Positions 4,257 to 32,823 of a DNA stretch of 50,148 bases are shown here, in pieces (the stretch's first letter is position 1; each line of letters opens with the position of its first letter). The notes under the pieces were generated by a model. It worked only from the letters and a program-made list of their open reading frames with translations, was not told where the DNA came from and searched no databases. The position numbers were made by a program, and so were the translations under genes. The stretch covers positions 1 through 50,148 of IMG/VR virus record IMGVR_UViG_3300025030_001570. One strand, given 5' to 3'. The stretch comes from a virus (lineage: Duplodnaviria; Caudoviricetes).

Positions 4257-4257
4257 T

Positions 4258-4368: not shown

Positions 4369-4380
4369 AAGAAAATTAGA

Positions 4381-19077: not shown

Positions 19078-21651
19078 TTAAGTATAACTTAATTCTTCTA
19101 TCACGTTTCCTATAGATATATCTGATTTTACAAAGCCGCCAAAGAACTCTCCGATCACATTACCTAGAGTCTCTAATATATAGAATGGCGTGGTCGTAGA
19201 GCTAGTACTAGTACTAGTTGAACTAGTAGATGTAGACGTTGAAGTTGATGTTGTACTACTGGTTGAGCTACTACTAGTCGCTGTTGTCGAAGTTGAGCTA
19301 CTGGAACTGCTACTGCTGGTGGTGCTACTTGTTGACGTGCTAGTGGATGTACTAGAACTGGTACTCGTGCTGGAACTAGTCGAGCTGGTAGTGGAACTGG
19401 TCGAAGAACTGGAGCTAGTACTGCTCGATGTTGACGTGCTAGTTGAAGTAGAACTAGATGTACTGGTGCTAGATGAACTGGTCACAGTAGTCGATGTTGA
19501 ACTGCTAGTAGAAGACGAGCTTGAAGTTGAAGAGCTGGTTGAACTAGAAGTAGCTGACGTAGACGAGCTAGAAGAACTAGTTGAAGACGACGTGGACGAA
19601 CTAGTTGAAGTTGAAGTTGAAGAAGTTACACCAGATGTAGTGGTGGAACTAGAGCTAGTTGAACTACTACTGGTTGAAGTACTTGTCGATGTAGAGCTGG
19701 ACGTACTAGAGCTGGTAGAACTACTGGTTGAGGAGCTGGTAACCGATGTACTAGTGCTGGTACTTGAAGACGTAGAGCTTGAGGTGGAGGAGCTAGTACT
19801 GGTTGACGAAGATGTTGAAGAAGATGTTGAGGTAGTACTACTGCTCGTTGAGCTGGATGTGGAACTACTGGTTGAAGAGCTAGTACTACTGCTAGTACTG
19901 CTAGATGTACTGCTGGATGATGTAGAAGTACTGCTAGACGTACTAGTAGAGGTGCTAGAACTTGTGGCTGAAGTAGATGTACTCGTACTCGAAGAAGTAG
20001 AAGATGAGGTAGAACTACTGGTACTTGTGCTAGACGAAGTAGATGTACTGGTGGATGTTGCGGAAGTTGAGGTTGAAGTGGAACTTGATGTACTACTGCT
20101 TGAACTTGATGAGGTACTGGTACTAGATGAAGTCGATGAACTAGTTGATGAAGATGTAGACGAACTCGTAACTGATGTACTTGTAGATGTTGATGAAGAA
20201 GTGCTACTACTGGTACTACTGGACGTGGACGTAGATGTAGAAGTCGAGCTGCTGGTACTCGAACTTGACGTAGAAGAACTTGTGCTAGTTGATGTAGACG
20301 ATGAACTACTAGTTGAAGTGGAGGTTGTCGTTGTTCCACCGAAAGTTACTCCCCACAAATCTGTTTTCAAAGATATAGATACTGATGGAGCTGTGGTTGT
20401 TGAGCTAGAACTTGTGCTACTTGAACTCGTGCTGGTTGAAGTCGAGGTAGAAGTAGACGAGCTAGTTGACGAGCTGGTACTGGAACTAGTAGATGTAGTG
20501 GTGGTGCTTGTTGAAGTGGTTGTTCCACCTGCTGTATAGGTGGCATAGATGGAGTATTTATTACTTAAATTACTTAAAGTGTTAGGATTTGTAGGACTTG
20601 TATAATTATTATCACTTTCATATTTAATTTCCCCACTTGATCCACTATCTCTATAAATTTGTGAAGCGTTTGTACCACCAACTACTACCCAGGGGACATA
20701 GTCAGTAGCATTAGAAACAGATGGTGGTACAGACATCGTGGAAACAAGCCAAGAAGGCCCACCACTTCCTTGTGCTAACGGGTCTACAATCGAACCAATA
20801 CCATTAGTTAAGATAGTCCAAGTTGTCGGCCCTGCATCCGTAACAAAACCTTTCATTCTTGAACCACCCGTATTATCGTGAGCATAAACAGATACACTAT
20901 CCACAGTACCTGCCGATGAAGTTGTATTATTAACAAAACTTCCCAAGGCGTTATTAGCAGGCCAATTTCCAGCAGCAGCTCCTGCTGTTGTGTATCCAAT
21001 TGTCAATCCCGCAGCGTGTCTTATTGGATAAACCGCTTTATCTAAGAACTCTTGAGGGATAGTAACTGAGAGTATGCCGTTTTCAATGTTTAATTCTCCC
21101 CAAACCCAACTTCCAACACTATCAATTATTTTCGGTCTAAAAATATGGCCGACTTTTCCACATTTGTATTCTTTTCCGCCAACATAATTGACTTTATTTT
21201 CGGAAGCATACACAGCATAAGAACCAACTACATTTTCTGGTCTAGTTGTACCTTGGTCTATTTCTTCTTGAGTTAATTCTGGTTGATAGAAGAAATCCAA
21301 TCCTTTGGTCTCTAAGGTAAATTCAATCTTATTAGTAAGGGGTTTTTCTTTGAGGATAACTTCAAACTCAAAAGCACCTTCGGGATGTTCTTCATTCGAG
21401 GGTATATTATAGAAGTGGGCTTCGGTCTTTTCTCCTTGCCAAAGGATTTTATCTGCTTCTGTTGTTATTGTCGGGGATACCTCATTAGTAATTAATCTAG
21501 CGGATAAATTGACTTCATTATCCCATCTTTGAATCTTGACTTGGGGGTAGAAGTCTGATTGTTTTGAGTCACCAATCTCAATCGCTATACGGTCTTTTGG
21601 ATTGTCTTTCGGTATTGCAAAATATGTACCCCCAGATTTGGTGTAAATCAT
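19078..21651 (-). CDS. Ser/Thr-rich (mucin-like) virion fibre protein, 857 aa
   Basis: Globular N-terminal domains followed by S/T tracts of about 43 and 380 aa. Confidence 0.8.
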   Translation of the reverse strand: MIYTKSGGTYFAIPKDNPKDRIAIEIGDSKQSDFYPQVKIQRWDNEVNLSARLITNEVSPTITTEADKILWQGEKTEAHFYNIPSNEEHPEGAFEFEVILKEKPLTNKIEFTLETKGLDFFYQPELTQEEIDQGTTRPENVVGSYAVYASENKVNYVGGKEYKCGKVGHIFRPKIIDSVGSWVWGELNIENGILSVTIPQEFLDKAVYPIRHAAGLTIGYTTAGAAAGNWPANNALGSFVNNTTSSAGTVDSVSVYAHDNTGGSRMKGFVTDAGPTTWTILTNGIGSIVDPLAQGSGGPSWLVSTMSVPPSVSNATDYVPWVVVGGTNASQIYRDSGSSGEIKYESDNNYTSPTNPNTLSNLSNKYSIYATYTAGGTTTSTSTTTTSTSSSTSSSTSSSTSTSTSTSTSSSSTSSSSTTTAPSVSISLKTDLWGVTFGGTTTTSTSTSSSSSTSTSTSSSTSSSSTSSSTSTSTSTSSSTSSSTSSSTSTSTSVTSSSTSSSTSSSTSSSTSTSSSSSSSTSSSTSTSTSATSTSTSTSSSTSTSSSTSSSTSSSTSTSTSATSSSTSTSTSSSTSTSSSSTSSSTSSSTSSSTSSSTSSSTSSSTTSTSSSTSSSTSTSSSTSSSTSSSTSTSTSVTSSSTSSSTSSSTSSSTSTSTSTSSSSTSSSSTTTSGVTSSTSTSTSSSTSSSTSSSSSSTSATSSSTSSSTSSSSSTSSSTSTTVTSSSSTSTSSSTSTSTSTSSSTSSSSSTSSTTSSTSSSTSTSSSTSTSTSTSSTTSSSSSSSSTSTTATSSSSTSSTTSTSTSTSTSSTSTSTSSTTTPFYILETLGNVIGEFFGGFVKSDISIGNVIEELSYT

Positions 21652-24600
21652 ACCGCCTCCTGATAAATTCTTGCCGAAACTATATTGTTTACATCATAGT
21701 AATCACTCAACCCAGTTGTTTTGATGCCACTTAAAGTAAAATCTGTATTCGCTCCCGTTGTACTATCGCTATCCAAAGTTTCCCAAGTAGTTGTAGTTCG
21801 GTTATATATCTGTAAGTAAACCGTAGAAGCAGATGGTGCTCTATCGGTCTGGCCGTCCCAATTAAGAGTAATTGAATCTGTGCTGTTTGAATGTTTATCT
21901 TTAAATAAAAAGAGAGCAAATTGGTCAGTAGCGGTTTGATTTACCCTGACGCTATCGTCTGTGGCTACATCTATATAGTCTTGAGCACTAAATGCAGTTT
22001 CTAGGTCATTATCATTACTTGGTAAACTAAGCTCATCTCCTCTTGTATATTCTTGTTCTGGTATTAGTGCTGTTGTAGTTGAACTAGAAGAAGTTGAACT
22101 ACTACTGGTAGACGTGCTAGTACTGGTAGAAGTACTACTTGATGTTGATGTGCTAGTACTGGTACTAGTAGAGCTTGTTGTTGATGAGCTGGTAATACTA
22201 GTGGAAGTACTAGTCGATGAGCTAGTGCTTGAGCTTGTTGAACTGGAGGTCGATGTAGATGTAGATGAGCTGGTTGAACTACTTGTAGAACTTGAAGTCG
22301 CACTAGTACTAGTCGAGGTGCTAGAACTTGTGGAGGAGCTAGTACTGGAACTGGTGCTAGTGGAACTTGAAGTACTAGAAGTTGTACTGCTCGTACTTGA
22401 AGATGTAGATGAGCTTGTGCTACTACTGGTTGAACTAGATGTGCTAGATGACGTTGAGCTGCTAGTTGTAGTAACCGATGTCGATGTACTAGTACTTGAA
22501 GAAGTAGAAGATGACGTTGATGAACTTGTACTTGTACTGGTCGAGGTACTAGAAGAGGTGCTAGTTGACGAACTTGTAGTTACTCCTAACGCCGTGGTTG
22601 TAGAGCTGGAAGAAGTAGAACTAGACGAAGTAGAACTAGACGTTGAGGTGCTAGTCGAACTAGAGGTGGAACTACTAGAACTAGTAGACGTGCTTGTGGA
22701 ACTAGAGGTTCCACTAGTTGAGGTCGAGGTGGAACTAGACGTACTACTTGAGGTAGAGCTACTAGTTGAAGTTGAAGAGCTAGTACTCGTACTAGAACTT
22801 GTGCTACTTGATGTAACAGACGTTGATGTAGACGTAGAGCTAGAGGTCGAACTGCTCGTAGACGTAGATGTTGACGTACTAGAACTCGTAGCACTTGTGC
22901 TGGTAGACGTACTGGATGATGTCGAGCTGGATGTACTCGATGACGTGCTGGTGCTTGTACTCGAACTTGTCGAGCTACTAGTAGAACTAGAAGTAACACT
23001 AGTAGACGTGGATGTGGATGAGCTTGTTGAGCTGCTAGTCGACGTACTTGTGCTAGTTGAACTACTTGTTGCCGAGGTACTAGTACTGGTACTTGAGGAA
23101 GTTGATGAGCTGGTCGACGAAGAAGTCGAAGTACTCGAACTGGTGCTACTACTAGTAACCGATGTTGAGGTTGAAGTCGAACTACTAGTGCTGCTACTAG
23201 TACTAGAGGATGTCGATGTAGAACTAGAGCTACTAGTGCTTGAACTGGTACTAGAGCTAGTTACTGATGTGCTAGTACTGGTTGAAGAACTAGTGGAGCT
23301 ACTGGTGCTACTGCTCGTTGAGGTTGAAGTAGACGAGCTGGTTGAAGATGTGGTTGAGGAAGTAGTAACGCTGGTTGATGTTGATGTCGAGCTACTAGTA
23401 CTACTAGAGGTACTTGAACTGGTAGAGGTAGAACTGCTCGTGGCCGAGGTAGAAGTAGATGTACTGGAGCTAGTTGAACTAGACGTAGAGGAACTGGTAC
23501 TTGTAGAACTGGATGTGCTACTGGTCGTTGATGATGTACTAGAGCTGGTGCTAGACGAAGTCGAACTACTGGTGCTAGTACTGGTGCTAGTTGACGTACT
23601 GCTAGAGCTGGATGTAGCAGAGGTAGACGTTGAAGTAGAGGAGCTTGTGCTACTACTGGTTGAACTACTTGTAGACGAGGACGTGGCACTGGTGCTAGTA
23701 GAAGTAGATGAGCTGGTACTACTGCTTGTCGATGAGCTTGTAGACGATGAAGTCGTGGACGAGCTAGTACTAGTCGATGTTGAGGTGGAAGTGGACGTAC
23801 TCGTCGATGTGGAAGTAGATGTAGATGTAGTACCCGCCGCCGCTGTTATCTTCACCTCGGCATAGTTAATTATATTTGATTCACTAACATTGTTATTAAA
23901 CAAACAGATATATAGATAACCGCTGGCGTCTATAAAATTTGTTAAGTTAGTTAACAAAATACCGTGAAAGTACCAAGCTGCTGTCTTGACAGAACGTTCT
24001 AACTCAATCCAAACGCTATTAGTGGAATCCCAGATCGCCAGCCACTCTTTTCCCGTGCCAGCGGAGTAGCCCAAAACTTTAACTGCAATTTGGTTTATAT
24101 TGGCTTCTGTCTCCGAAATGGCAAACCTGCACCAAAAGACCGAGTTGTCACCCGCTCCTGGATCAAGCAACGTCCAAAGATTAGCGTCATCGGCTTCTAT
24201 CAGATCATATTGGGCGGAACTAGCCTCAGCGTCATTGGCATAGCCAGCAATACCTGTCCTTAAATTAGGGGTGCCTGTGGCCGTACCATCAGAGGTCAAA
24301 GTATCAAGCTCTAATCCGACTATTGGATCGCCAAATCTGGGCGGTGGGTCGGTCGGTGCGGAAACATCAACTTCAAAATCTCTGGCAACGTGGGTAGAAC
24401 TTGGGTTATTTATCCCGACGAAATTATAGGTAGAAGTAGACCCAGAACCCTGTGTCCTGTATTCCACCAACGCCCATATGTTTGAGAACCAAACATCAGG
24501 AGCGGCATCTGGAGTAGTTACCCCAATTTGCCCATTATCTAAGTCAGTAGTTGTCCATTGACCACCAGAATCAGGCAACCTATAAGCTGTTAATTTATAT

Positions 24601-25538
24601 TGTTTATTAAGGGCAGTATCATCGTTAGTATTAAACGAAGCACTAGCAATGGCGGTTGTAGTCCCCTGCAATCTAGTACCGCTGGCCGCTTTCTTGATGA
24701 CGGGGGCATAACTACAACTGGTAGCAGTCTCCCCCCTGACTCTAACCCCAACCTGTACTAAAGTAATTGGATCGCCAGCGGTTATGCCAGCAGTGGAACT
24801 ACTCTCCATATTGTATTCGGCGAACTGGGCATTAGTATCAACCTCGATATAATCCGCATCATTTGGAGGCACTTCCTCAATGTCCGAGAACAAACCCGCC
24901 GTAGCCGCATTATCCCCAGCGGAGTCTGGATGTATATGGACTATTTTTCCTTCGCCTGGGAAATCCGTTTGATGATCGTTGGTACTGTCATTAACAGCAA
25001 TATCATCAAAATAGGCATCCATCGTAGCGGAGTCAAAAACTCCAATACGGATACCCCGCATATTATTGCCGTTTTGGTGTGCGAACGTTCCACCAGCAAA
25101 AAAATCGCCATCAATAGCCGCCCAGCCAGCCCCAGCCTCGTGCGACCACTCAATCCTATACCAAGTGTCTAAACTAAGGGCTGGAGAATCAGAACCGACT
25201 TGAGCTAAAGTTTCATTCCAAAACTCTAAAGTCCCATTTGAATTAACTCGGATATTCGTTCCTCCACCAGCCAACGAGTCAAAGAAGTAACCAATGGTTG
25301 TTAGTCCTGCAGGGAAAGAGGTGAAGCGGACGTACATTCTAGCAAAGGCGGGAGTACTATCAGTTGGTCTATAAGCGTGCGAGATATATGCCGTAGTACT
25401 GGAAACATTACAGCGCAGAGAGGCAGCACCACTTCGTTTAATTGTTGTGTTTATTGTCGGAGAATTAACAACAGCATCAAATTCCACTCCCGCTGTTACT
25501 GATTGTAGCTCTATACCGCTCGACCAAAGCCTAGCCAT
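21648..25538 (-). CDS. Giant Ser/Thr-rich (mucin-like) virion fibre protein, 1296 aa
   Basis: Beta-sandwich/lectin-like N-terminal domains, an S/T tract of about 590 aa, and a C-terminal domain of about 140 aa. Confidence 0.8.
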   Translation of the reverse strand: MARLWSSGIELQSVTAGVEFDAVVNSPTINTTIKRSGAASLRCNVSSTTAYISHAYRPTDSTPAFARMYVRFTSFPAGLTTIGYFFDSLAGGGTNIRVNSNGTLEFWNETLAQVGSDSPALSLDTWYRIEWSHEAGAGWAAIDGDFFAGGTFAHQNGNNMRGIRIGVFDSATMDAYFDDIAVNDSTNDHQTDFPGEGKIVHIHPDSAGDNAATAGLFSDIEEVPPNDADYIEVDTNAQFAEYNMESSSTAGITAGDPITLVQVGVRVRGETATSCSYAPVIKKAASGTRLQGTTTAIASASFNTNDDTALNKQYKLTAYRLPDSGGQWTTTDLDNGQIGVTTPDAAPDVWFSNIWALVEYRTQGSGSTSTYNFVGINNPSSTHVARDFEVDVSAPTDPPPRFGDPIVGLELDTLTSDGTATGTPNLRTGIAGYANDAEASSAQYDLIEADDANLWTLLDPGAGDNSVFWCRFAISETEANINQIAVKVLGYSAGTGKEWLAIWDSTNSVWIELERSVKTAAWYFHGILLTNLTNFIDASGYLYICLFNNNVSESNIINYAEVKITAAAGTTSTSTSTSTSTSTSTSTSTSTSSSTTSSSTSSSTSSSTSSSTSTSTSATSSSTSSSTSSSTSSSTSTSTSATSSSSSTSTSTSTSTSSSTSSSTSSSTSSTTSSTSSSTSTSSSTSSSTSSSTSTSTSATSSSTSTSSSTSSSTSSSTSTSTSVTTSSTTSSTSSSTSTSTSSSTSSSTSSSTSTSTSVTSSSTSSSTSSSSSTSTSSSTSSSTSSSTSTSTSVTSSSTSSSTSTSSSTSSSTSSSTSTSTSATSSSTSTSTSTSSSTSSSTSTSTSVTSSSTSSSTSSSTSTSTSSSTSSSTSSSTSTSTSATSSSTSTSTSTSSSTSSSTSTSTSVTSSSTSSSTSTSSSTSTSSSTSSSTSSSTSTSTSGTSSSTSTSTSSSSSTSSSTSTSTSSSTSSSSTSSSSTTTALGVTTSSSTSTSSSTSTSTSTSSSTSSSTSSSTSTSTSVTTTSSSTSSSTSSSTSSSTSSSTSSSTSSTTSSTSSSTSTSSSTSSSTSSSTSTSTSATSSSTSSSTSSSTSTSTSSSTSSSTSSSTSTSTSITSSSTTSSTSTSTSTSTSSSTSTSTSTSTSSSSTSSSSTTTALIPEQEYTRGDELSLPSNDNDLETAFSAQDYIDVATDDSVRVNQTATDQFALFLFKDKHSNSTDSITLNWDGQTDRAPSASTVYLQIYNRTTTTWETLDSDSTTGANTDFTLSGIKTTGLSDYYDVNNIVSARIYQEAV

Positions 25539-25541
25539 AAA

Positions 25542-25970
25542 TTAAATAAATTTTGATAAAATATCTCCAGTAGTATCCGAATTTATATCGATTACCCAAA
25601 CCTTCTCAGGGTACAACGTATCGGAAAGCCATCGCCTTAAACGTGCTTCAAGTTCTGTATAAGAATATTCTTGTTCGTCTGCCCATAAAATCTGAAAAGC
25701 TGGAAATAGTGTTGAATCGGTAGATAACACAGTAATCTTATCTTTGATGGCCTTAGGAATTTTCCTGCCAACTATAATATATGTTTTGACTTTAATTTCA
25801 GGGCTTATCCCTTTGAGAATAAAGTCACCTAATTCTTGGTTCTTAATCTCTACAAGACTATTAACTGTATCAACAATATTCTGGATTTTAACCCCATTAC
25901 TGTTAGTAACAGAATTGTCAATAATTATTCCAATAGCATAGCTTGGCCGTTCATCACGATTAAAAGACAT
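25542..25970 (-). CDS. Hypothetical protein
   Basis: 142-aa ORF with promoter motif and AAAGGA SD. Confidence 0.65.
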   Translation of the reverse strand: MSFNRDERPSYAIGIIIDNSVTNSNGVKIQNIVDTVNSLVEIKNQELGDFILKGISPEIKVKTYIIVGRKIPKAIKDKITVLSTDSTLFPAFQILWADEQEYSYTELEARLRRWLSDTLYPEKVWVIDINSDTTGDILSKFI

Positions 25971-26012: not shown

Positions 26013-27194
26013 CTAGTTTGAGGCTTTGAGGTTGTTATAGAGAGCTAACGCATCAGGATCGTTAATCTCTAAATCACCTATAAATACCTTACCATCTACT
26101 TCTTTCAATTCAAACTCACGGGTAAACGATAAGTGCTTGCCGTAGAGTTCATCGTTTTTTATATCCCAAGCACGCCTTATATGAGGGCTACCCTTTTTAT
26201 CTGGCCGACAACTACCATCACAATCTGGTTCTTTACCAGTACCTATTAGATCATCAAAGGTTCTTTTTTGGTTGGTTACAATATATTCCCGATGGGGTCT
26301 GGCTTCTTCCATAGCCTCATCGTAAAGTTTCTTCCAAAGAGCTTTAGCCTCTGGTTTATTTTGGTAATAAGTCATTAAGGTAGGAATAGTGTACCTATCG
26401 CCACTAATAATGTAAGTAGCGATGAAGTAGTTGTGGATTAAGTTGAGGGAGTTATAGTTGTATCCCCTGCCGAACATCGAATGGTACATATGAGTTTTCA
26501 TATCAACCATACAACCCTCTCCAAGCATCCAAGATGCTATACAAAAAGATAATTCTCCGCCACCATACTCCCTTAAATAAGGGTTATAACCACCAATCTT
26601 AAAATACTCATCTCTTTTGATCGCAAAGTAAGCGTGTCCTAAAGCACCGATATAAAATGGTTGAGTGTTGTCAAAGACTCTCATATTCGTCCAAGTGCCA
26701 TAAATTCCCTTCTCCCCAAACTTTATTGAATACTGCACGCCCTGGCGGATATTTGGACTCCCCCAATAATCCATAGTGGAATGAACATGGCTAACAGAAT
26801 ATTTCTCCAATGTATCTATCAGATTGGTAATTGAGTCTGGTTCTACTTGAATATGGGCATCAGCAAATACTAAATACTTGGCAGTTGCTACATTTCTTAC
26901 AGCCCAATCCCTAGCCGAGACGTTGCCAATCCAGGGGTAATAATATACATAAACATAACCTCTAGCTACCAATCCTCGCAAGGCGGGTTCGCCAAAACGA
27001 TTCTCAATAAAATAACGTGAAGAATAATCAGTACTGCCATTATCAATAATTAGTATCCGCCAAGAATAAGGAGAAGCTTCTAACGCAAAAATTAGACTGT
27101 GAATAGTCGAAGTCAAATCGTGAGATTCATTTCTTGTTCCTATAATAACCTCTAAATCAACTTCTTCGTGAGGGTTAAACTTTTCCTGTGTCAA
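26013..27194 (-). CDS. GT-A glycosyltransferase with polypeptide-GalNAc-transferase (GT27)-like motifs
   Basis: VII..RNE...TIHS, IIDNGSTD, G..SAR, VFADAH (DxH), YFAIKRDEYFKIGGY...YGGGE...W..G...YH. Confidence 0.8.
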   Translation of the reverse strand: MTQEKFNPHEEVDLEVIIGTRNESHDLTSTIHSLIFALEASPYSWRILIIDNGSTDYSSRYFIENRFGEPALRGLVARGYVYVYYYPWIGNVSARDWAVRNVATAKYLVFADAHIQVEPDSITNLIDTLEKYSVSHVHSTMDYWGSPNIRQGVQYSIKFGEKGIYGTWTNMRVFDNTQPFYIGALGHAYFAIKRDEYFKIGGYNPYLREYGGGELSFCIASWMLGEGCMVDMKTHMYHSMFGRGYNYNSLNLIHNYFIATYIISGDRYTIPTLMTYYQNKPEAKALWKKLYDEAMEEARPHREYIVTNQKRTFDDLIGTGKEPDCDGSCRPDKKGSPHIRRAWDIKNDELYGKHLSFTREFELKEVDGKVFIGDLEINDPDALALYNNLKASN

Positions 27195-27555
27195 ATGGCC
27201 TCTCCTTTGTTTTATCGTAGATTTTAGTCATCGCCTCAATCAGTATCGAATCCTTCTTCATCTTAAATGAATGAGCAAAGTACGGTGGTATTTTAATCGG
27301 ACTCATTCTAAACATATCAAAAGTGGTCTTTTCCTTAGTCTTTACATCAATAATGGTTACCTCCGCCTCTCCTTTAGCCAGATAAAAATACTCGTCAGCG
27401 GCAGTACTGTAGTGGTTGCCAAGAATTGAATCCTCTTTAACATGAAGAACTTTAATGTTATGGATTGATATATTCAGATCACTAAAGAATTCTACTAAGT
27501 CTCTTCTTTTATCTGAACCAACAAAGGTTACATAAGAGAAATCAGTTTGTTCCAT
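27175..27555 (-). CDS. Cupin sugar isomerase/epimerase (FdtA/WxcM/RmlC-like)
   Basis: DKRR, GNHY...EYFYLAKG, IPPYFAHSF. Confidence 0.75.
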   Translation of the reverse strand: MEQTDFSYVTFVGSDKRRDLVEFFSDLNISIHNIKVLHVKEDSILGNHYSTAADEYFYLAKGEAEVTIIDVKTKEKTTFDMFRMSPIKIPPYFAHSFKMKKDSILIEAMTKIYDKTKERPFDTGKV

Positions 27556-28201
27556 AATATCTTTGTACCTCTTCTAATACATACGGCATAGCTAACTGGT
27601 TTAGGTGGATAGCATCCTGGAAGTATTCACCTTTGACTGTCCCATCTTCATTCAACAGTTTATTAAAAATCGTTATTACAGGTATGGTATTCTCCTCCGC
27701 CAGCTTACTTAATCTGGCATTAAACATCTTAGTTACCTCCAGCCTTTCTTGCCAAGTTCCAAAGGCCGGAAAATCGAGATGGTCACTGTCTAAAGTTGGT
27801 GTGACGTGCCAGGCTATTGGAGAGTACTTTATGTCCTTTATTTCCAAGAAGACTGAGAAATAGCGGTCAACACATTCATTGACCACATCTTCTACACTTC
27901 TTTCCTGTAACCTAGCTTGTTTAAGCAAGTGCAGTCGACAATCTATCTCGCCAAAAACCAACATTACCCTGCTATTCTTAGGCAACTTCTCAACAGCCGC
28001 AAACAACTTTTCTCTCCCTTGAGTAGTCGAGCCTTCTTTAACTAGATTGTACGCTGTAGTAGGGCCAACAATTAACGCTTTAAATATCGGTATCCTGTTG
28101 ATACACCATCGAGGATACTGTCTTTCTTTCTGCCAATTCCGTAATCTTGACTTGCCACCAAAGAAATGGGCGTGGCTATCACCGATACAGTAAATTTTCA
28201 T
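27542..28201 (-). CDS. SGNH/GDSL-family hydrolase or acetyltransferase
   Basis: IGDSH, FGEID, DAIH blocks. Confidence 0.8.
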   Translation of the reverse strand: MKIYCIGDSHAHFFGGKSRLRNWQKERQYPRWCINRIPIFKALIVGPTTAYNLVKEGSTTQGREKLFAAVEKLPKNSRVMLVFGEIDCRLHLLKQARLQERSVEDVVNECVDRYFSVFLEIKDIKYSPIAWHVTPTLDSDHLDFPAFGTWQERLEVTKMFNARLSKLAEENTIPVITIFNKLLNEDGTVKGEYFQDAIHLNQLAMPYVLEEVQRYYGTN

Positions 28202-29153
28202 TGTCCACCATTATCTTAATTAACTCTTGAAACTTAACTTTAGGTTCATAACCAAGCAGTTTCTTAGCTTTTGAGTAATCTCCCAGTAAAGTGGTAGTTT
28301 CGGCTGGTCTCATAAAGTTTTTATCCTGTTCTACATAGTCTTTCCAGTTCAAACCAAGATAATTAAAAGTCTCGGTCACAAACTCCTCTATGGTATGATT
28401 CTCGCCTGTAGCGATTATAAAGTCATCTGGAGTAGAGTACTGCATAATCTTCCAAATCCAGTAGACATATTCCTTAGCGTAACCAAAGTCACGTTTCTCA
28501 TCTAAATTACCTAAATACAATTTATTCTGCAAGCCTTTCTTTATCCGTACAGCGGCTTTAACTACCTTCTTGCTGAGAAACTGATCTCCTCTTCTTGGAC
28601 TTTCATGGTTAAATAATATCCCATTATATATCTTCATTCCGTAACCTCTACGAAAACACCTACCAAGATAAAAAGCGTAGGCTTTAGCACAGCCGTAAGG
28701 ACTGCGGGGATTAAAAGGTGTTTCTTCGTTCTGTGGTACTTCTTTGACTTCACCGTACATCTCACTGGAACTGGCCTGATATATCTTTGCATCTGGACAG
28801 GCATTACGAGCTGCCTCAATGAGTCTAGCAAACCCTAAACCTGTAACCTCACCAGTATAAACTGGTACATCATAGCTAACCCTTACTTGGCTTTGAGCCG
28901 CAAGGTTATATATCTCATCGGGTTTTACTTTTTTAAGTATCTGCTCAAGACTACTTTGTTCCAGTAGATCACCATAATGAAGAAAGAGCTTACGATTAAA
29001 AATGGCTTCTTGGTCAATTAGATGTTGGATTCTATCAGTGCCACTACTGCTACTTCTACGGATAATCCCATGAACCTCGTATTCTTTTTCAATTAACAAT
29101 TCAGCTAAATAACTCCCGTCTTGTCCGTTTACGCCAGTAATTAAAGCTTTCAT
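28179..29153 (-). CDS. gmd: GDP-mannose 4,6-dehydratase
   Basis: ALITGVNGQDGSYLAE, YNLAAQS.V, YQASSSEMYG, SPYGCAK, LFNHESPRRG. Confidence 0.95.
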   Translation of the reverse strand: MKALITGVNGQDGSYLAELLIEKEYEVHGIIRRSSSSGTDRIQHLIDQEAIFNRKLFLHYGDLLEQSSLEQILKKVKPDEIYNLAAQSQVRVSYDVPVYTGEVTGLGFARLIEAARNACPDAKIYQASSSEMYGEVKEVPQNEETPFNPRSPYGCAKAYAFYLGRCFRRGYGMKIYNGILFNHESPRRGDQFLSKKVVKAAVRIKKGLQNKLYLGNLDEKRDFGYAKEYVYWIWKIMQYSTPDDFIIATGENHTIEEFVTETFNYLGLNWKDYVEQDKNFMRPAETTTLLGDYSKAKKLLGYEPKVKFQELIKIMVDNENLLYR

Positions 29154-29803
29154 AATAGACTCGCAATCTCCTCTGGTAGAGGTTTATCTAATAGTGCTGG
29201 CTTACCTACACCATAAGTATATCCTTGCAGATCATCTTTTCTAAACGAGTGCGGTTTAACCAACGCTAGATGATAAAATCGAGGTGCTATTTTCCTAACC
29301 TTTGGATTGTGTTTCCAGTATAAAGGCACACCATTGGTGTAGATCATATCTTTAGGCCAGGGATGACGGTAGGTAATACCATCATTCCTATAGAATTTAG
29401 TAAACCATTTATTCCACCAACTGCCATCGTGATTCTCTTTGTCTATCACTTGGTAAGGGTTCACTGCTAGACCAGGGGAGTCATCTAATTCGTGCATAAC
29501 CGAATCTAAATCATAAGGATTCCAGTAATCGTCATCATCCAAAAAGAGAATCCACTCGGTTCTTGTCATATCGGCTAGTTTCTGCCTTTCAGCCGTCAGC
29601 ATACCTTGATCTGGTACATCCTCATAAAATATCTTAATCTTTGGATTATTCAGGGCTTTTATAGCTTCCTCTGTTCCATCGGTAGATTTCTTGGAAATAG
29701 TTACAAACATCTCACTCATCAATAAAGAAGCCGATTTAAGAACAGGAACGATAAAAGGCATTCCGTTTTTGACTATGGTATGACTTGTGATGGTCAGTCT
29801 CAT
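29150..29803 (-). CDS. Glycosyltransferase, GT2/GT-A
   Basis: IVKN, STDGT, WILFLDDDD. Confidence 0.8.
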   Translation of the reverse strand: MRLTITSHTIVKNGMPFIVPVLKSASLLMSEMFVTISKKSTDGTEEAIKALNNPKIKIFYEDVPDQGMLTAERQKLADMTRTEWILFLDDDDYWNPYDLDSVMHELDDSPGLAVNPYQVIDKENHDGSWWNKWFTKFYRNDGITYRHPWPKDMIYTNGVPLYWKHNPKVRKIAPRFYHLALVKPHSFRKDDLQGYTYGVGKPALLDKPLPEEIASLL

Positions 29804-30429
29804 ATCGCTCTCCTCGCCATTCCTATTAAATGGTTCCCAATCACTTTAATTGTGCAATTGCCGAAAATCTTTGTTAGCAAGTGTGTCAGCATATTACTGT
29901 CGTACTTCCTAACGTGTTCATCAGTCTCGTCCGGCCCTGATATATTATTCGGCACAGCTACATATAGATGACCACCATCGTTGAGGCGGTTAAACGATAA
30001 TCTTACGACATCTTCATCTCGCCACAAATGCTCAAGAGTATGGTTGATGGCAACGAAATCAAACTTTTGTTCTAACTTATCCATATCGTAAATATCCATA
30101 GCCAACCCATCTATACCGTATTCCTTTTTCATTCTTTCTATAGCAACGGGAGATATATCAATACCAAATACCTCACAAGTATCTTTTACCCCGTATAAAA
30201 GTCTGCCATTCCCACAACCTACATCTAGGACTGATTTAGCCCCAAATTCTTTAATCCTCCACCAAGCCCATTGCATTGAGTACTTCTCTACTTTACGACT
30301 TGGTCTATTCCAAAGACCATCCCAGTATTCGGTTGTGTTTGCTCTATCTGCCACCGCCTTTAACCACGCTGGCTTATCAGCGTGCCTCCAAGTTTTCCAG
30401 ACATCGTTCCAATACTTCTCGTCATTCAT
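29800..30429 (-). CDS. Class I SAM-dependent methyltransferase
   Basis: VLDVGCGNG, GIDIS, HTLEH. Confidence 0.9.
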   Translation of the reverse strand: MNDEKYWNDVWKTWRHADKPAWLKAVADRANTTEYWDGLWNRPSRKVEKYSMQWAWWRIKEFGAKSVLDVGCGNGRLLYGVKDTCEVFGIDISPVAIERMKKEYGIDGLAMDIYDMDKLEQKFDFVAINHTLEHLWRDEDVVRLSFNRLNDGGHLYVAVPNNISGPDETDEHVRKYDSNMLTHLLTKIFGNCTIKVIGNHLIGMARRAI

Positions 30430-30935
30430 TTCTTCCTCGCTACTAGCGTAATGTTCGGTAAAGCATATTTCTCTGTTGGGGAGATTCTTACACGGGAGCG
30501 TGTCTTTTTCATATCTACAATCTCAAAACCTACTTGGGGTAAAATTTCTCTAAACTTATCTTCATACCACCCATCTTTATGGTAAGCCCAATCATCTTCC
30601 CCTTGCGAACCATAAGCGTGCCTAACCAACCAATATTTGTCATTGCGGTTCCAGTCCTCTATAATTCCTTCAAAGTCTGGTACTTCAAGTAGTAACAACC
30701 CACCAACCTTTAACCAAGAGTGCCATTGTTTTAGCACTTTAATTGCCTCATCCCTACCGAAATGCTCAAGCAAATGTCGTGCGTGGACTTCCTCAACGTC
30801 AGAATACGTTAGAGTTCTGAAGTCCGCTATAAGATCAGGATGGTAGCGTTCTTCTACATCGATATTTAGAAATTCTGTAATATATCTTTTTCCACTTCCC
30901 ACATTGATTTTCACTTTTTCCTCCATAATTGCCAT
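30426..30935 (-). CDS. SAM-dependent methyltransferase (glycan-cluster type)
   Basis: INVGSG, LNID, HLLEH, LKVGG.L...VPD. Confidence 0.85.
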   Translation of the reverse strand: MAIMEEKVKINVGSGKRYITEFLNIDVEERYHPDLIADFRTLTYSDVEEVHARHLLEHFGRDEAIKVLKQWHSWLKVGGLLLLEVPDFEGIIEDWNRNDKYWLVRHAYGSQGEDDWAYHKDGWYEDKFREILPQVGFEIVDMKKTRSRVRISPTEKYALPNITLVARKK

Positions 30936-31474
30936 TTGTTGTCGTAAACCTTATTGTGAGTCTTTTCAAGGATAGCTACTGCAAGTGGGTATTTTTCATT
31001 GAAGTTGGGTATCCTATGAAACTGAATCATTATCTCGTAAACACCCCTCAAAAGATTGTTCTCGTTTAGGTCTTCTAGTATTGCAAACTCCGCCCCTTCA
31101 CAATTTATTTCAAGTATGTCTACCTTCCTGTCCTTTAAGAAACCACTTAACTTAACAACATCAACCTCGATAGAATTATCCGATCTGGCCCATTCCCTGT
31201 AAAAAGAACTGCCTTCTTTGTTGACATAAAGAGTTCTTTTTCCTACCTCCTCCCCAAGTGCGTAAGGCAAAACTTTAACCCTCATGTTGGTCTCAAACCT
31301 TTTTCTGCAGACCTCGTAAAAGTCAGGCACTGGTTCAAAAATGATAATATAAGGATTCCATTGGTCAAGTAGATATTGGGAATAATCGCCTTTGTAGCCA
31401 CCGCAATCTACGACTAGAGAACCTGATCTTAAAGGTTTATGTAGTTTAACTATATCCTCAATTCTGGTTTTCAT
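30911..31474 (-). CDS. FkbM-family methyltransferase
   Basis: VVDCGGYKG, FEPVP, INCEGAEF, IQFH; likely start MKTRIED. Confidence 0.85.
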   Translation of the reverse strand: MKTRIEDIVKLHKPLRSGSLVVDCGGYKGDYSQYLLDQWNPYIIIFEPVPDFYEVCRKRFETNMRVKVLPYALGEEVGKRTLYVNKEGSSFYREWARSDNSIEVDVVKLSGFLKDRKVDILEINCEGAEFAILEDLNENNLLRGVYEIMIQFHRIPNFNEKYPLAVAILEKTHNKVYDNKWQLWRKK

Positions 31475-31475
31475 A

Positions 31476-32162
31476 TCACCTAAACCCCCTAAAATACTGG
31501 TGATATATCCTGTATTCTTCCCTAATCTTGCGGTAGGAAAAATAACCGTGCTTATCATAAAATTGTTGCTTGGCTATATCTGAAGTAGTGTGCCACTCTG
31601 ATATACTTTGATTGCTTTTATTTCTGGTTACACCAACCAAATGGGCAATAGTTATCTTTTTACTGGTTGCCGACTTCAATCCATTTAACTTCATTCTCCA
31701 AGCTAAATCTAAGTCATCACAGCTCCACAAAAACCTTTCATCAAATAACCCAATCTCCCTAAACAAGCTAGTTTTGAAGAAGCCACAGGGGCCGTAAAAA
31801 TGCTCCACTACTCCTTTTTCTTTATCTGTCAGTCGTACTGCATTTAAGAACTTTTCAAAATCTGCTGTCTCAACATAACCAGGAGACACCGCATTGTAGG
31901 TTTGCAGTTTCTCAACTACATCTTCCAACCAACCTTCTACAAACCATAGATCATCATTTAGCACTCCGACAGCAAAAGTTCCTCCTTTGTAAGCATCTAT
32001 TAGAATTGGGTTGATTGCGGAAGCTCCAAAGTTCTCTCCTTGTAGAATATGTAGCTTTAGGTTGGTGAATTTCTCGGTTGTTGGCTTAAATCCAGACAAG
32101 AACTCATCCAAGATGTTTTGGTGTTTAGACTGTACAATTACCTCAAGTTTGGTTTGGTACAT
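31476..32162 (-). CDS. Glycosyltransferase, GT2/GT-A
   Basis: LNDD, WLE, IGLFDERF...DDLDLAWR, HLVG; likely start MYQTK. Confidence 0.85.
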   Translation of the reverse strand: MYQTKLEVIVQSKHQNILDEFLSGFKPTTEKFTNLKLHILQGENFGASAINPILIDAYKGGTFAVGVLNDDLWFVEGWLEDVVEKLQTYNAVSPGYVETADFEKFLNAVRLTDKEKGVVEHFYGPCGFFKTSLFREIGLFDERFLWSCDDLDLAWRMKLNGLKSATSKKITIAHLVGVTRNKSNQSISEWHTTSDIAKQQFYDKHGYFSYRKIREEYRIYHQYFRGFR

Positions 32163-32823
32163 ATTTTCTATACTCCTCTGGAATCGGAATCCCACAATGC
32201 CCAGGTTCGTGGAATCGGTAATCGTGTTTCCAAATTCCAGTTCTCAACTCCCCCAAATGAAGAAATGGGTGTTTAACTCCCTGATATTTTCGTGAATTTA
32301 AACGGTGTTTATTGTAAGCAATCACCTCATGTCCATAATTACCTTCCCAAGTTAGTTCGGGCATATTTCTAAATAACCTAATCGGGTGAAAATTTCTATG
32401 GTGATATGGATCAAGAATATGATCTCCCTCTAAATGGTAGAAGTAAACAGAATAAACAAAACGATCTGGAGGTGGTTCTAGGTCAAGTATGTCTCGCATA
32501 GTCAAATCAGGGAAGATTTCATCATCATCAATTTTTAGTATCCATTCAGACTTAGTTTCAATTCTCAATTTATTTAGCAGTTCAGTTAAAGCTGTATTTT
32601 TCTCATTATCTATCCAAGTTCTACCTAAATGCTGAACATCAAATCGGTCATATTCTAAAAATGGGTAAGAAGTTTTAATCTCCTTTAGTATTTCCATTGT
32701 TCTATCAGTTGATCCTGTATCTATTACACGAGCTTCATTAATAAAAGGCAGAACAGCCTTTAAAACAAAAGGCAAGAGATATTCTGCCTCGTAAGTTAAT
32801 AAGTTAATTGCTAAGGATTGCAT
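32143..32823 (-). CDS. Glycosyltransferase, GT2/GT-A
   Basis: IDTGSTDRT, WILKIDDDE, RLFRN, HE. Confidence 0.85.
   Translation of the reverse strand: MQSLAINLLTYEAEYLLPFVLKAVLPFINEARVIDTGSTDRTMEILKEIKTSYPFLEYDRFDVQHLGRTWIDNEKNTALTELLNKLRIETKSEWILKIDDDEIFPDLTMRDILDLEPPPDRFVYSVYFYHLEGDHILDPYHHRNFHPIRLFRNMPELTWEGNYGHEVIAYNKHRLNSRKYQGVKHPFLHLGELRTGIWKHDYRFHEPGHCGIPIPEEYRKYVPNQT

What the first reader, a model, noticed from the sequence alone, without database searches (positions are those of the whole stretch)
26013..27194. Polypeptide-GalNAc-transferase (GT27)-like enzyme next to the mucin-like genes
Seen: VIIGTRNE..LTSTIHSL, ILIIDNGS, GNVSAR...ATAKYLVFADAH and YFAIKRDEYFKIGGYNPYLREYGGGELSFCIASWMLG...HMYH. 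Known: eukaryotic ppGalNAc-Ts, which initiate mucin-type O-glycosylation, have VII.FHNE..LLRT.HS, a DxH metal motif (FLDAH) rather than DxD, and the Gal/GalNAc-T motif LFAI.R.YF..IG.YD.GM..WGGEN.E.S.R.W.CGG...VGH. The other GT-A enzymes here use DxD-type motifs. Inferred: this is the initiating peptide-O-HexNAc transferase, lacking the ricin lectin domain. It is the last enzyme gene of the cluster, one small ORF upstream of its putative substrates.
Basis: partly seen in the sequence, partly recalled or inferred. Interest (0 to 1): 0.85.

Follow-up and report, generated by a model that had tools for sequence, protein, structure and literature searches.

The report
Phage mucin-type glycosyltransferase beside poly-Ser/Thr fibres
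A 50-kb bacteriophage encodes an enzyme that most resembles the animal enzymes that start mucin-type sugar coating of proteins, placed directly upstream of giant virion proteins made almost only of serine and threonine, which suggests that this phage builds its own sugar-coated fibres.

Summary
By sequence, profile and predicted fold, its closest solved relatives are eukaryotic polypeptide GalNAc-transferases (GT27). VIA-align gives Z 26.5 and 24.8 for GT27, against 17.9 or less for ordinary GT-A enzymes. The DxH motif (D112, H114) and the C-terminal metal-binding His (H238) are invariant in the family. It is not a full GT27. It has no lectin domain and no membrane anchor, and YGGGE replaces WGGEN in a fixed register. 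That leaves a Glu at the position where inverting relatives hold their catalytic base, so the stereochemistry is open. The window is a complete podophage genome, and about 12 kb of it is a sugar-synthesis cluster. The gene is the last of that cluster. Downstream lie a 142-aa ORF and two virion-type proteins with Ser/Thr tracts of 596 and 448 residues. Relatives of the enzyme occur in 32 other viral contigs. Long Ser/Thr tracts accompany the enzyme in 26 of 34 records, against 2 of 12 related phage records without it. Priming of these tracts is the best-supported reading, but it is inferred and not shown. I found no published phage example.

The parts
26013..27194 (-). GT27/GT60-like DxH glycosyltransferase, 393 aa. 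Catalytic GT-A domain about residues 14-250, then a helical region and a small Cys-containing beta region. No lectin domain and no membrane anchor.
25542..25970 (-). 142-aa ORF of unknown function between the enzyme gene and the Ser/Thr-tract genes. Other loci hold a small ORF in this position, but no sequence similarity was detected.
21648..25538 (-). 1296-aa putative substrate and virion fibre. It has an N-terminal ConA-like jelly-roll domain plus a second beta domain (about residues 1-362), a Ser/Thr tract at residues 565-1160 (95.6% Ser+Thr) and a C-terminal domain of 136 aa.
   Evidence: (phrog_14065, E 6e-62).
19078..21651 (-). 857-aa second putative substrate, with Ser/Thr tracts at residues 371-427 and 435-825. 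Its start overlaps the stop of the 1296-aa gene by 4 nt.
39409..39732 (-). 107-aa ORF close downstream of the major capsid gene, with a C-terminal tail of about 45 Ser/Thr residues. A possible third substrate.
27175..28201 (-). Two ORFs: a WbuC-like cupin (27175-27555) and an SGNH/GDSL-like protein (27542-28201). Likely sugar-tailoring genes.
28179..29153 (-). GDP-mannose 4,6-dehydratase.
   Evidence: PF16363, E 1.6e-122; TIGR01472, 419.5 bits against a cut-off of 415.
29150..33509 (-). Four GT-A-like ORFs with DxD-type motifs (29150-29803, 31476-32195, 32143-32823, 32811-33509) and three methyltransferases (29800-30429, 30426-30935, 30911-31558).
33493..37986 (-). Five ORFs: an asparagine-synthase-like amidotransferase domain (33493-34440), a nucleotide-sugar dehydrogenase-like protein (34424-35194), an SDR epimerase/dehydratase (35164-36045), a methyltransferase (36042-36707) and a GT-B (GT1/GT4-like) glycosyltransferase (36679-37986).

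Best explanation
The gene encodes a soluble, cytoplasmic, metal-dependent GT-A glycosyltransferase. It belongs to a mostly viral clade that sits with the polypeptide O-HexNAc transferases (GT27, and by the DxH signature GT60) and not with ordinary GT2 enzymes. I propose that during infection it takes a host UDP-sugar and transfers the first sugar to Ser/Thr hydroxyls of the long Ser/Thr tracts. These tracts lie in the phage's own fibre-type virion proteins (1296 aa and 857 aa, perhaps also the 107-aa protein next to the capsid gene). The other five glycosyltransferases and the tailoring enzymes of the 12-kb cluster would then extend and modify the glycan. They include a GDP-mannose dehydratase, an SDR, a dehydrogenase, an amidotransferase, four methyltransferases, an SGNH-like protein and a cupin. 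The result would be a densely glycosylated, extended stalk between the N-terminal ConA-like domain and the C-terminal domain. Shown here: the homology and fold, the conserved metal-binding residues, the gene order and the co-occurrence. Inferred: the peptide acceptor, the priming role, the donor sugar and the anomeric outcome.
For: Sequence. phmmer against the PDB listed 10 sequences at E<=1. Seven are ppGalNAc-Ts and three are ArnC; the best is T10 at E 0.0013. The profile of 32 homologues listed 38 sequences at E<=1, led by TgGalNAc-T3 (9.4e-9), PGANT9, T10 and T1. These matches run over residues 9-252 and include DxH, the GGE motif and the C-terminal His. A wider profile of 109 sequences gave 16 top rows that are all GT27 (E 1.6e-51 to 2.3e-39). 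K4CP followed at 2e-37 and generic GT2 at 7e-22 or weaker.

Fold. The model has pLDDT 91.5. All 30 Foldseek rows shown (ranks 1-45) are ppGalNAc-Ts, with E 1.6e-16 to 5.5e-14. VIA-align gives Z 26.5 (308 residues aligned, rmsd 3.5) and 24.8 (291, 3.4) for GT27. The next rows are K4CP and WrtF at 17.9.

Signature residues. D112, H114 and H238 are invariant in A1. Among 168 homologues they are present in 163, 163 and 164. Passages of PMC7185993 say the DxD-to-DxH replacement is confined to GT27 and GT60, both polypeptide Ser/Thr O-glycosyltransferases.

Context. The window is a complete phage record with capsid, portal, terminase and SU10-type adaptor genes.

Synteny. There are 32 other viral loci. 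In 14 of them a Ser/Thr-tract ORF lies downstream on the same strand. It starts 34-47 bp after the enzyme gene in 4 loci (33-38% identity). It starts 380-600 bp after it in 4 distant loci (23-25% identity, contigs of 34-109 kb). In the loci scanned with Pfam the enzyme gene is the last of a comparable sugar cluster.

Co-occurrence. Long tracts occur in 26 of 34 enzyme-positive records, against 2 of 12 adaptor-related records without the enzyme. Both of those 2 are incomplete records. Fisher p = 4.5e-4, not corrected for relatedness.

Substrate family. None of 78 homologues of the fibre's N-terminal domain carries a tract.

Selection on the tract. It uses all six Ser and four Thr codons and shows only weak DNA repeats. 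So the composition is kept at the protein level.
Against: No biochemical evidence exists for any step.

The Gal/GalNAc-T motif differs in a fixed register. Y210 stands for the Trp, G213 for the Glu and E214 for the Asn of WGGEN. Position 214 is acidic in 159 of 168 homologues. It is the xED-Asp position, which is the catalytic base of the inverting clade-5 relatives GT7 and GT2-CHS (passages of PMC7185993). The enzyme could therefore be inverting and could act on a sugar.

K4CP, a sugar-acceptor polymerase, is the next-best relative.

The cluster holds five other glycosyltransferases that could prime instead. They include a GT-B enzyme and an ORF with a weak SunS-like match (28.7 bits against a cut-off of 350).

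Adjacency is not universal. In the complete record G003 the enzyme gene lies about 13 kb from the tract genes. Five enzyme-positive records show no tract; four of them are 19-40% complete and one is a 77%-complete provirus with a weak homologue. Record G002 has a tract but no detected enzyme and is 78% complete.

More distant relatives lack the link. Tunturi_4 gp2 and 4 of 5 MAG loci have no long tract nearby.

The tracts lack the prolines that animal ppGalNAc-Ts favour near their sites (passage of PMC6994419).
Confidence: 0.55

Rival explanations
1. The enzyme works in the same virion-glycan pathway but extends the glycan. It would act as a GT7/K4CP-like, possibly inverting, transferase that adds a Gal/GalNAc-type sugar to a sugar already on the protein. 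Another enzyme of the cluster would prime Ser/Thr. Candidates are the GT-B enzyme 36679-37986, by analogy with GtfA/GtfB of the serine-rich-repeat adhesins (recalled), and the weakly SunS-like GT-A 29150-29803.
For: Glu at the xED-Asp position is acidic in 159 of 168 homologues. K4CP is the next-best fold and profile match. PF02709, the domain shared with beta4-galactosyltransferases, is found in 35 of 109 distant homologues. Five other glycosyltransferases lie in the cluster.
Against: DxH plus the C-terminal His is the GT27/GT60 signature and not that of GT7 or GT2-CHS. GT27 stands 7-9 Z units above K4CP, and beta4GalT7 scores only Z 11.8. The gene keeps its place next to the tract genes even in the small cluster of L029 (GT-B, methyltransferase, this enzyme). 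In L033 it is the only glycosyltransferase that Pfam recognised at E<=1e-5 within 7.8 kb upstream.
Confidence: 0.27
2. The 12-kb cluster, this enzyme included, does not modify virion proteins. It would instead modify a host surface polysaccharide (exclusion or serotype conversion) or the phage DNA. The Ser/Thr tracts would be unglycosylated flexible linkers that share a lineage with the cluster.
For: Phage glycosyltransferases are known to modify DNA and host O-antigens (passage of PMC12619734). The co-occurrence counts are not corrected for relatedness. More distant homologues occur without tracts.
Against: No flippase, polymerase, lipid-carrier priming enzyme or oligosaccharyltransferase turned up among the ORFs of 100 aa or more that I scanned, and no hydroxymethyl-pyrimidine enzyme either. 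The cluster sits inside the structural module, between the capsid and adaptor genes. The enzyme-tract linkage recurs in contigs of very different size and at 23-74% enzyme identity. None of 78 fibre homologues outside these phages has a tract.
Confidence: 0.1
3. The enzyme glycosylates a different protein or peptide, such as the capsid, portal-proximal proteins or a host protein. Its place beside the tract genes would be an effect of module order.
For: In Tunturiibacter phage Tunturi_4 a homologue (24% identity, with DxH and the C-terminal His present) lies between the terminase and portal genes. None of the eight downstream proteins I translated (gp4-gp7, gp9-gp12) has a tract. Single distant family members are fused to PqqD or FHA domains.
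Against: In the window's own subfamily the gene abuts the tract genes or has them in the same record.
Confidence: 0.08

Closest known systems
Eukaryotic UDP-GalNAc:polypeptide alpha-N-acetylgalactosaminyltransferases (CAZy GT27; e.g. mouse T1 8v9q, T. gondii GalNAc-T3 8uhv, human T2 4d0t)
   Same: GT-A catalytic domain with subdomains A and B. A DxH motif plus a C-terminal His for Mn2+. A Gal/GalNAc-T-type motif with identical spacing to its flanking conserved residues. Best profile and fold matches. Genes for dense Ser/Thr acceptor tracts lie next to it.
   Different: 17-20% identity. No ricin lectin domain, stem or membrane anchor. YGGGE replaces WGGEN, so Tyr stands for the mobile catalytic Trp, Gly for Glu and Glu for Asn. 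It would work in the bacterial cytoplasm and not the Golgi. The acceptor tracts lack proline. Donor sugar and stereochemistry are unknown.
GT60 polypeptide alpha-GlcNAc-transferases (Dictyostelium Gnt1 and pp-GlcNAcT, T. cruzi OGNT; names recalled, the family relation from PMC7185993)
   Same: The DxH motif. No lectin domain. Some members are cytoplasmic (recalled). Grouped with GT27 as polypeptide O-glycosyltransferases.
   Different: Pfam reported no family beyond PF00535 and PF13506 for the window protein. No GT60-type family is among the 13 families found in 109 homologues. No solved GT60 structure appeared among the fold matches, so the comparison is incomplete.
Mycobacteriophage virion O-glycosylation (Che8 gp108-110, Corndog gp38; Freeman et al. 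2023, seen only as cited in PMC12363180 and PMC12619734)
   Same: Phage-encoded glycosyltransferases that glycosylate the phage's own structural proteins.
   Different: The enzymes are unrelated. Che8 gp110 matches PF01755 (GT25) and scores hhalign probability 0.2% against this family. gp108 is a DxD GT2 fused to a methyltransferase. According to those citing passages the targets are the C-termini of capsid and tail-tube subunits, not tracts of hundreds of residues.
E. coli K4 chondroitin polymerase GalNAc-transferase domain and GT7 beta4-Gal/GalNAc-transferases
   Same: The same GT-A clade 5. A shared GGE-acid motif, with an acidic residue at the catalytic-base position. K4CP is the second-best structural and profile match.
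   Different: They use DxD and not DxH, invert the anomeric configuration and act on sugar acceptors. Their Z scores are 7-15 units lower.
Serine-rich-repeat adhesin glycosylation of Gram-positive bacteria (GtfA/GtfB priming; recalled)
   Same: Very long Ser-rich tracts with little or no proline, glycosylated in the cytoplasm by a dedicated gene cluster placed beside the substrate gene.
   Different: There the primer is a GT-B (GT4) O-GlcNAc transferase and the substrates are exported cell-wall adhesins, not virion proteins.

Membership tests
GT27 (ppGalNAc-T) | GT-A catalytic domain most similar to solved GT27 structures | tested here: met
   VIA-align Z 26.5 and 24.8 against 17.9 for the next family. 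All 30 Foldseek rows shown are GT27.
GT27 (ppGalNAc-T) | DxH metal motif in place of DxD | tested here: met
   D112-A113-H114 is invariant in 32 homologues and aligns to the DSH of TgGalNAc-T3 and PGANT9.
GT27 (ppGalNAc-T) | Third metal ligand, the conserved C-terminal His (His344 in mouse T1) | tested here: met
   H238 is invariant and aligns to the His of 'VGH'/'VYH'. The metal-site geometry was not checked because no coordinates were available.
GT27 (ppGalNAc-T) | Gal/GalNAc-T motif WGGEN, including the mobile catalytic Trp (W331 of human T2) | tested here: not met
   YGGGE stands in the same register: Y for W, G for E, E for N. The spacing to the flanking conserved residues is identical.
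GT27 (ppGalNAc-T) | C-terminal ricin-type lectin domain | tested here: not met
   The protein is 393 aa with no PF00652 match. A passage of PMC6994419 reports that a lectin-less snail enzyme stayed active on peptides.
GT27 (ppGalNAc-T) | Type II membrane topology (cytoplasmic tail, transmembrane region, stem) | tested here: not met
   The first strand of the GT-A domain starts at residue 14 and no hydrophobic N-terminal segment precedes it.
GT27 (ppGalNAc-T) | Retaining transfer of alpha-GalNAc from UDP-GalNAc to Ser/Thr of a polypeptide | not testable with these tools
   This needs an enzyme assay and product NMR. The Glu at the xED-Asp position leaves the stereochemistry open.
GT60 (polypeptide alpha-GlcNAc-T) | DxH motif without a lectin domain, and a match to a GT60 family model | tested here: inconclusive
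   DxH is present and the lectin domain is absent. Pfam reported no family beyond PF00535 and PF13506. No solved GT60 chain was seen among the matches.
GT2 in the broad sense (Pfam PF00535) | Match to PF00535 above the gathering score | tested here: met
   48.8 bits against a cut-off of 23.3, covering residues 16-155 only. The family model also covers GT27 enzymes, so this match does not discriminate.
GT7 / GT2-CHS (beta4-Gal/GalNAc-T, chondroitin polymerase) | DxD motif with an xED-Asp catalytic base | tested here: inconclusive
   An acidic residue sits at the base position (E214; E or D in 159 of 168), but the metal motif is DxH and not DxD. PF02709 does not match the window protein, although it matches 35 of 109 distant homologues.

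The most novel reading that the evidence does not exclude
Tailed phages carry their own mucin-type O-glycosylation system. A lectin-less, cytoplasmic relative of the animal and protist polypeptide GalNAc/GlcNAc-transferases primes Ser/Thr tracts hundreds of residues long in virion fibres. A phage-encoded pathway of about 15 genes then builds a methylated, deoxy-sugar-containing glycan on them, giving bottle-brush stalks on the virion. The mostly viral DxH clade combines the GT27/GT60 metal site with the acidic base position of GT7 and GT2-CHS. It would then be a prokaryotic-virus branch near the split from which the eukaryotic mucin-initiating enzymes arose.
Probability: 0.4. Interest if true: 0.85.

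Novelty: new variant of a known kind. Interest (0 to 1): 0.72.

Why it matters
Mucin-type O-glycosylation and its initiating enzymes are treated as a eukaryotic trait. The only experimentally shown phage virion O-glycosylation, in mycobacteriophages, uses unrelated enzymes and short C-terminal sites. A phage lineage that spends about a quarter of a 50-kb genome on glycan synthesis would be a new kind of virion surface chemistry. It pairs a GT27/GT60-like enzyme with roughly a thousand Ser/Thr acceptor positions in three virion-module proteins. Possible roles include host recognition, resistance to proteases and shielding. The system would also offer a small, soluble, lectin-free polypeptide glycosyltransferase for glycoengineering in bacteria. 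It would add a data point on how the retaining GT27/GT60 enzymes diverged from inverting GT7-like ones. The claim can be tested directly with recombinant protein and tract peptides.

Tried and rejected
1. Complex prediction of the enzyme (with alignment A1), residues 551-600 of the 1296-aa protein and Mn gave no verdict: score 0.00, controls not run. It counts neither for nor against binding.
2. A genome-contig scan with A1 found no relative in the species genomes. The patterns it used were narrow. A second scan with the distant subfamily A6 found 5 MAG loci; one has a long Ser/Thr ORF and one a 38-residue tract.
3. PHROGs gave no match for the enzyme. NCBIfam gave only far sub-threshold hits such as EpsD at 22.5 bits against a cut-off of 370. 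PADLOC was not run.
4. tblastn against the phage collection gave one record, Tunturi_4, at 24% identity.
5. BFVD gave only generic GT-A proteins of uncultured phages and giant viruses, best E 1.6e-13 at 9-18% identity. That is weaker than the PDB matches to GT27.
6. The small 142-aa ORF as a conserved partner: no similarity in any locus and no family. I dropped this idea.
7. A terminase-based control set gave only one locus. The nine-sequence adaptor alignment A3 and the mixed alignment A5 were too divergent for pattern scans. The smaller alignments A4 and A6 were used instead.
8. The 'control' columns of the WSN pattern search equal the opposite-strand counts by symmetry of the pattern, so they carry no information.
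9. The promoter and terminator scan of 18.5-28.5 kb showed no excess over shuffles: 17 against 21.3 and 6 against 6.5. So it gives no evidence on operon boundaries.
10. No tRNA was found and the host was not identified.
11. Literature searches listed no paper on a phage GT27-like enzyme or on poly-Ser/Thr phage fibres. The library lacks most subscription journals. Freeman et al. 2023 was not held, so its details are known here only through citing passages.
Full report
OBSERVATION. The ORF at 26013-27194 on the minus strand is real. It is 393 aa with a TTG start, and its N-terminus aligns from residue 1 with its homologues. The side claims also hold:
- The four other GT-A-like ORFs of the cluster have DxD-type motifs: DDDD, DDDE, DND and NDD.
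- There is no ricin domain.
- The gene is the last of the sugar cluster.
- A 142-aa ORF separates it from two proteins with extreme Ser/Thr tracts.

The 1296-aa protein has a tract at residues 565-1160 with 370 Ser, 200 Thr and 1 Pro in 596 residues. The 857-aa protein has tracts of 57 and 391 residues. The tracts use all six Ser and all four Thr codons. Tandem Repeats Finder reports only short, weak DNA repeats of 2-4 copies at 64-100% match. So the composition is kept at the protein level and is not left over from recent slippage. Long ORFs on the opposite strand or in other frames inside the tracts (for example 22114-23865 on the plus strand) are by-products of the repeat.

WHAT THE ENZYME IS. 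Pfam sees only PF00535, over residues 16-155 (E 9.8e-13). That model also covers GT27 enzymes, so it does not discriminate.
- Against the sequences of solved structures, the single protein listed 10 sequences at E<=1. Seven are ppGalNAc-transferases and three are ArnC; the best E is 0.0013.
- The 5.8-billion-protein collection returned 34 proteins at E<=0.001. I aligned the window protein with 31 of the 33 others, leaving out a 276-aa fragment and a 667-aa fusion (A1).
- The A1 profile listed 38 PDB sequences at E<=1. T. gondii GalNAc-T3, Drosophila PGANT9, human T10 and mouse T1 lead at E 9e-9 to 7e-8. Their matches run over residues 9-252. K4CP and TarP at similar E-values match only the N-terminal nucleotide-binding half.
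- An exhaustive phmmer search of 1.84 billion cluster representatives gave 325 proteins at E<=1e-3, 55 at <=1e-10 and 7 at <=1e-30.
- A profile of the window protein plus 108 of these listed 56 PDB sequences at E<=0.001. Its 16 top rows are all GT27 (E 1.6e-51 to 2.3e-39). K4CP follows at 2e-37 and generic GT2 at 7e-22 or weaker. One member of that set carries a ricin domain and may itself be a eukaryotic GT27, which inflates these E-values somewhat.

The AlphaFold model is confident, with pLDDT 91.5 and pTM 0.90. All 30 Foldseek rows shown (ranks 1-45) are ppGalNAc-Ts, at E 1.6e-16 to 5.5e-14, TM 0.47-0.57 normalised to the query and 17-20% identity. VIA-align compared the model with 48,161 representative chains without relying on Foldseek. 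It gives mouse T1 Z 26.5 (308 residues aligned, rmsd 3.5) and TgGalNAc-T3 Z 24.8 (291, 3.4). K4CP and WrtF follow at 17.9, and ordinary GT-A enzymes score 17 or less.

RESIDUES. D112, A113, H114 and H238 are invariant in A1. Among 168 homologues of 250-1000 aa, D112 is kept in 163, H114 in 163 and H238 in 164. HMMER aligns these residues to the DxH motif and to the His of 'VGH' in GT27. Passages of Taujale et al. 2020 (PMC7185993) make three relevant points:
- The DxD-to-DxH change is confined to GT27 and GT60.
- The Asp of the xED motif is the catalytic base of inverting GT-A enzymes.

The phage motif YGGGE aligns without gaps to WGGEN or WGGEQ, and the spacing to the conserved residues on both sides is identical. 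So Y210 stands for the mobile catalytic Trp, which is W331 of human T2 according to a passage of PMC6994419. G213 stands for the Glu, and E214 for the Asn, which is the xED-Asp position. Position 214 is E or D in 159 of 168 homologues. The family thus joins the GT27/GT60 metal site to an acidic residue where the inverting relatives have their base. I cannot tell from sequence whether it retains or inverts. This is the main reason not to file it as a GT27. The identification of E334 and N335 of human T2 with the E and N of WGGEN is from memory.

CONTEXT. The window is a whole virus record of 50,148 bases, which the tool lists as 100% complete by CheckV's estimate. It encodes a terminase, an SU10-type portal, a major capsid protein, an SU10-type adaptor and an M23 peptidase. 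Between the capsid-proximal genes and the adaptor lie 15 sugar-related genes on the minus strand (27175-37986), and then this enzyme. They are a GDP-mannose 4,6-dehydratase (TIGR01472, 419.5 bits against a cut-off of 415), an SDR, a nucleotide-sugar dehydrogenase-like protein, an Asn-synthase-like amidotransferase domain, four methyltransferases, an SGNH-like protein, a cupin, four DxD GT-A-like proteins and one GT-B. The cluster plus the enzyme gene spans 11,974 bp, or 24% of the genome. Among the ORFs scanned I found no flippase, polymerase, lipid-carrier priming enzyme or oligosaccharyltransferase, and no hydroxymethyl-pyrimidine enzyme. That fits stepwise cytoplasmic glycosylation of proteins better than surface-polysaccharide or DNA modification.

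THE PUTATIVE SUBSTRATES. The first 363 residues of the 1296-aa protein match phrog_14065, a family of unknown function (E 6e-62). A search with residues 1-564 found 78 homologues of 712-2268 aa, several of them in Streptomyces genomes. None of the 78 has a Ser/Thr tract of 30 residues or more. The predicted N-terminal part (pLDDT 87) is a ConA-like jelly roll. It scores Z 18.3 to Cip1 and 17.7 to a glucuronan lyase. It also matches lectin domains of sialidases, the phage J-1 Dit CBM2 (14.7), a mycobacteriophage Douge baseplate chain (13.4) and the TM4 gp23 receptor-binding domain (13.3). This is a common fold, so it points only to a carbohydrate-binding or depolymerase-type virion fibre.

The domains are shuffled among relatives. 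The C-terminal domain of the 1296-aa protein recurs at the end of the tract protein next to the enzyme gene in L004 and L006. The N-terminus of the 857-aa protein recurs in L006 and L011. A third candidate substrate is the 107-aa ORF 39409-39732, downstream of the capsid gene, with a Ser/Thr tail of about 45 residues.

COMPARATIVE TEST. A scan of IMG/VR with A1 found 32 loci on 32 contigs, at 23-74% identity to the window protein.
- Nineteen loci contain an ORF with at least 80 residues inside windows of 70% or more Ser+Thr.
- In 14 loci the tract ORF is downstream on the same strand. It starts 34-47 bp after the enzyme gene in L003, L004, L006 and L007. It starts 380-600 bp after it in L028, L029, L031 and L033; in L029 and L033 one small ORF lies between, as in the window.
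- I scanned 66 ORFs from seven loci with Pfam. The enzyme gene is again the last gene of a cluster of epimerases, Asn-synthase-like proteins, dehydrogenases, methyltransferases, GT2 and GT-B enzymes. In L029 the cluster shrinks to GT-B, methyltransferase and this enzyme.

For the 18 enzyme-positive records without a same-strand downstream tract ORF, I searched the whole record for 20 consecutive WSN codons. Thirteen have matches, from 16 to 630 per record. The five without are 19-40% complete, or in one case a 77%-complete provirus with a weak homologue.

As a comparison set I fetched relatives of the adaptor gene, 18 loci in all, and screened them with an A1 HMM. Twelve records lack the enzyme:
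- Nine of them (G005-G013) have no tract in the whole record. One of these is 100% complete and one 86%.
- G002 (78% complete) has a tract but no detected enzyme.
- G004 begins inside a tract gene.
- G001 is a 6-kb fragment with only a 44-residue tract.

In the complete record G003 the enzyme gene lies about 13 kb from the tract genes.

Counting long tracts (at least 80 residues in an ORF, or at least 100 pattern matches) gives 26 of 34 enzyme-positive records against 2 of 12 enzyme-negative ones. Fisher p is 4.5e-4. Among the 15 records that the tools listed as at least 75% complete, the split is 10 of 11 against 1 of 4 (p 0.03). These tests ignore relatedness and are descriptive only. The link weakens at greater distance. 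Of five MAG loci with subfamily A6 relatives, one has a long tract ORF. Tunturi_4 gp2 lies between terminase and portal, and none of the eight downstream proteins I translated (gp4-gp7, gp9-gp12) has a tract.

MECHANISM PROPOSED. The enzyme binds a UDP-sugar through Mn2+ held by D112, H114 and H238. It transfers the sugar to Ser/Thr hydroxyls of the unfolded tracts in the host cytoplasm. The other glycosyltransferases and tailoring enzymes then extend the glycan, which probably holds a 6-deoxyhexose from GDP-mannose, a uronamide and O-methyl groups. The result would be a stiff glycosylated stalk between the ConA-like N-terminal domains and the C-terminal domain. My estimates are:
- about 0.9 that the protein belongs to the GT27/GT60-side clade;
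- about 0.7 that it acts somewhere on the tract proteins;
- 0.55 that it is the primer.

The donor and the anomeric outcome are open.

COMPARISON AND NOVELTY. The known phage virion O-glycosylation system is that of mycobacteriophages Che8, Corndog and Myrna. I know it here only from passages of PMC12363180 and PMC12619734 that cite Freeman et al. 2023, which was not held. It uses unrelated enzymes. Che8 gp110 matches GT25 (PF01755) and scores hhalign probability 0.2% against A1. gp108 is a DxD GT2 fused to a methyltransferase. Seven full-text searches listed no paper on a phage GT27-like enzyme or on poly-Ser/Thr phage fibres. The library omits most subscription journals and I read no supplementary files, so I cannot exclude prior description. 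The ESM Atlas places the protein nearest to clusters made almost wholly of viral GT2-annotated proteins. I rate this a new variant of a known kind: a polypeptide-O-glycosyltransferase-like enzyme in a new setting and with an altered catalytic motif.

LIMITS. There is no biochemistry. The host is unknown (no tRNA). No coordinates were available to check the active-site geometry. The complex prediction gave no verdict. The co-occurrence counts rest on fragmentary metagenomic records.

Noticed in passing
window 39409-39732 (-): A 107-aa ORF downstream of the major capsid gene ends in a tail of about 45 Ser/Thr residues. It may be a small glycosylated head-decoration protein. An 85%-identical N-terminal part occurs in the closest relative (L034).
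   Followed up: partly
window 26013-37986: The window is a complete 50,148-bp phage record, and 24% of it (11,974 bp, 16 genes) is devoted to sugar synthesis and transfer. That is an unusually large share for a phage of this size.
   Followed up: partly
window 26567-26569 (codon 210 of the enzyme): The database cluster representative listed as the window's own protein (P0001) differs from the window translation at residue 210, Tyr to Asp. This is the position equivalent to the catalytic Trp of GT27. I did not determine whether it is a natural variant or a sequencing difference.
   Followed up: no
window 21648-25538 (-), residues 1-362: The N-terminal ConA-like domain belongs to a wide family: 78 proteins of 712-2268 aa, including Streptomyces chromosomal proteins. 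None of them has a Ser/Thr tract. The family has no functional annotation (phrog_14065).
   Followed up: partly
L002 13694-17271: In the closest relative (enzyme 74% identical) the N-terminal fibre domain occurs twice, in separate ORFs. The Ser/Thr tract (572 aa, 89% Ser+Thr) is an ORF of its own. This could be a real split or frameshifts from assembling a repeat.
   Followed up: no
L059 1567-2565 (Tunturiibacter phage Tunturi_4 gp2): An isolated siphophage of an acidobacterial host carries a DxH homologue (FLDNH, YAGEE, H..R.Y) between its terminase and portal genes. It offers a cultivable system for testing what this enzyme family modifies.
   Followed up: partly
distant homologues in alignment A2: Single members of the wider DxH family are fused to a PqqD domain (a peptide-recognition element of RiPP pathways), an FHA domain, sulfotransferase domains or a ricin lectin. 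This hints at peptide or protein acceptors elsewhere in the family.
   Followed up: no
window 29150-29803 (-): The best NCBIfam match of this 217-aa DxD GT-A protein is the SunS family of peptide S-glycosyltransferases, far below threshold (28.7 bits against 350). It is an alternative candidate for a protein-directed step.
   Followed up: no
window 3621-5400 (+): A pentapeptide-repeat protein (3621-4256) lies next to a C5 cytosine DNA methyltransferase (4381-5400) in the early region. Both are possible anti-defence genes.
   Followed up: no
L058 1-657 (Thorarchaeota MAG contig): An ORF of 219 residues, open at the locus start and made almost wholly of Ser/Thr, lies about 7 kb upstream of a distant DxH homologue on a contig binned to an archaeal MAG. 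I did not check whether that contig is viral.
   Followed up: no
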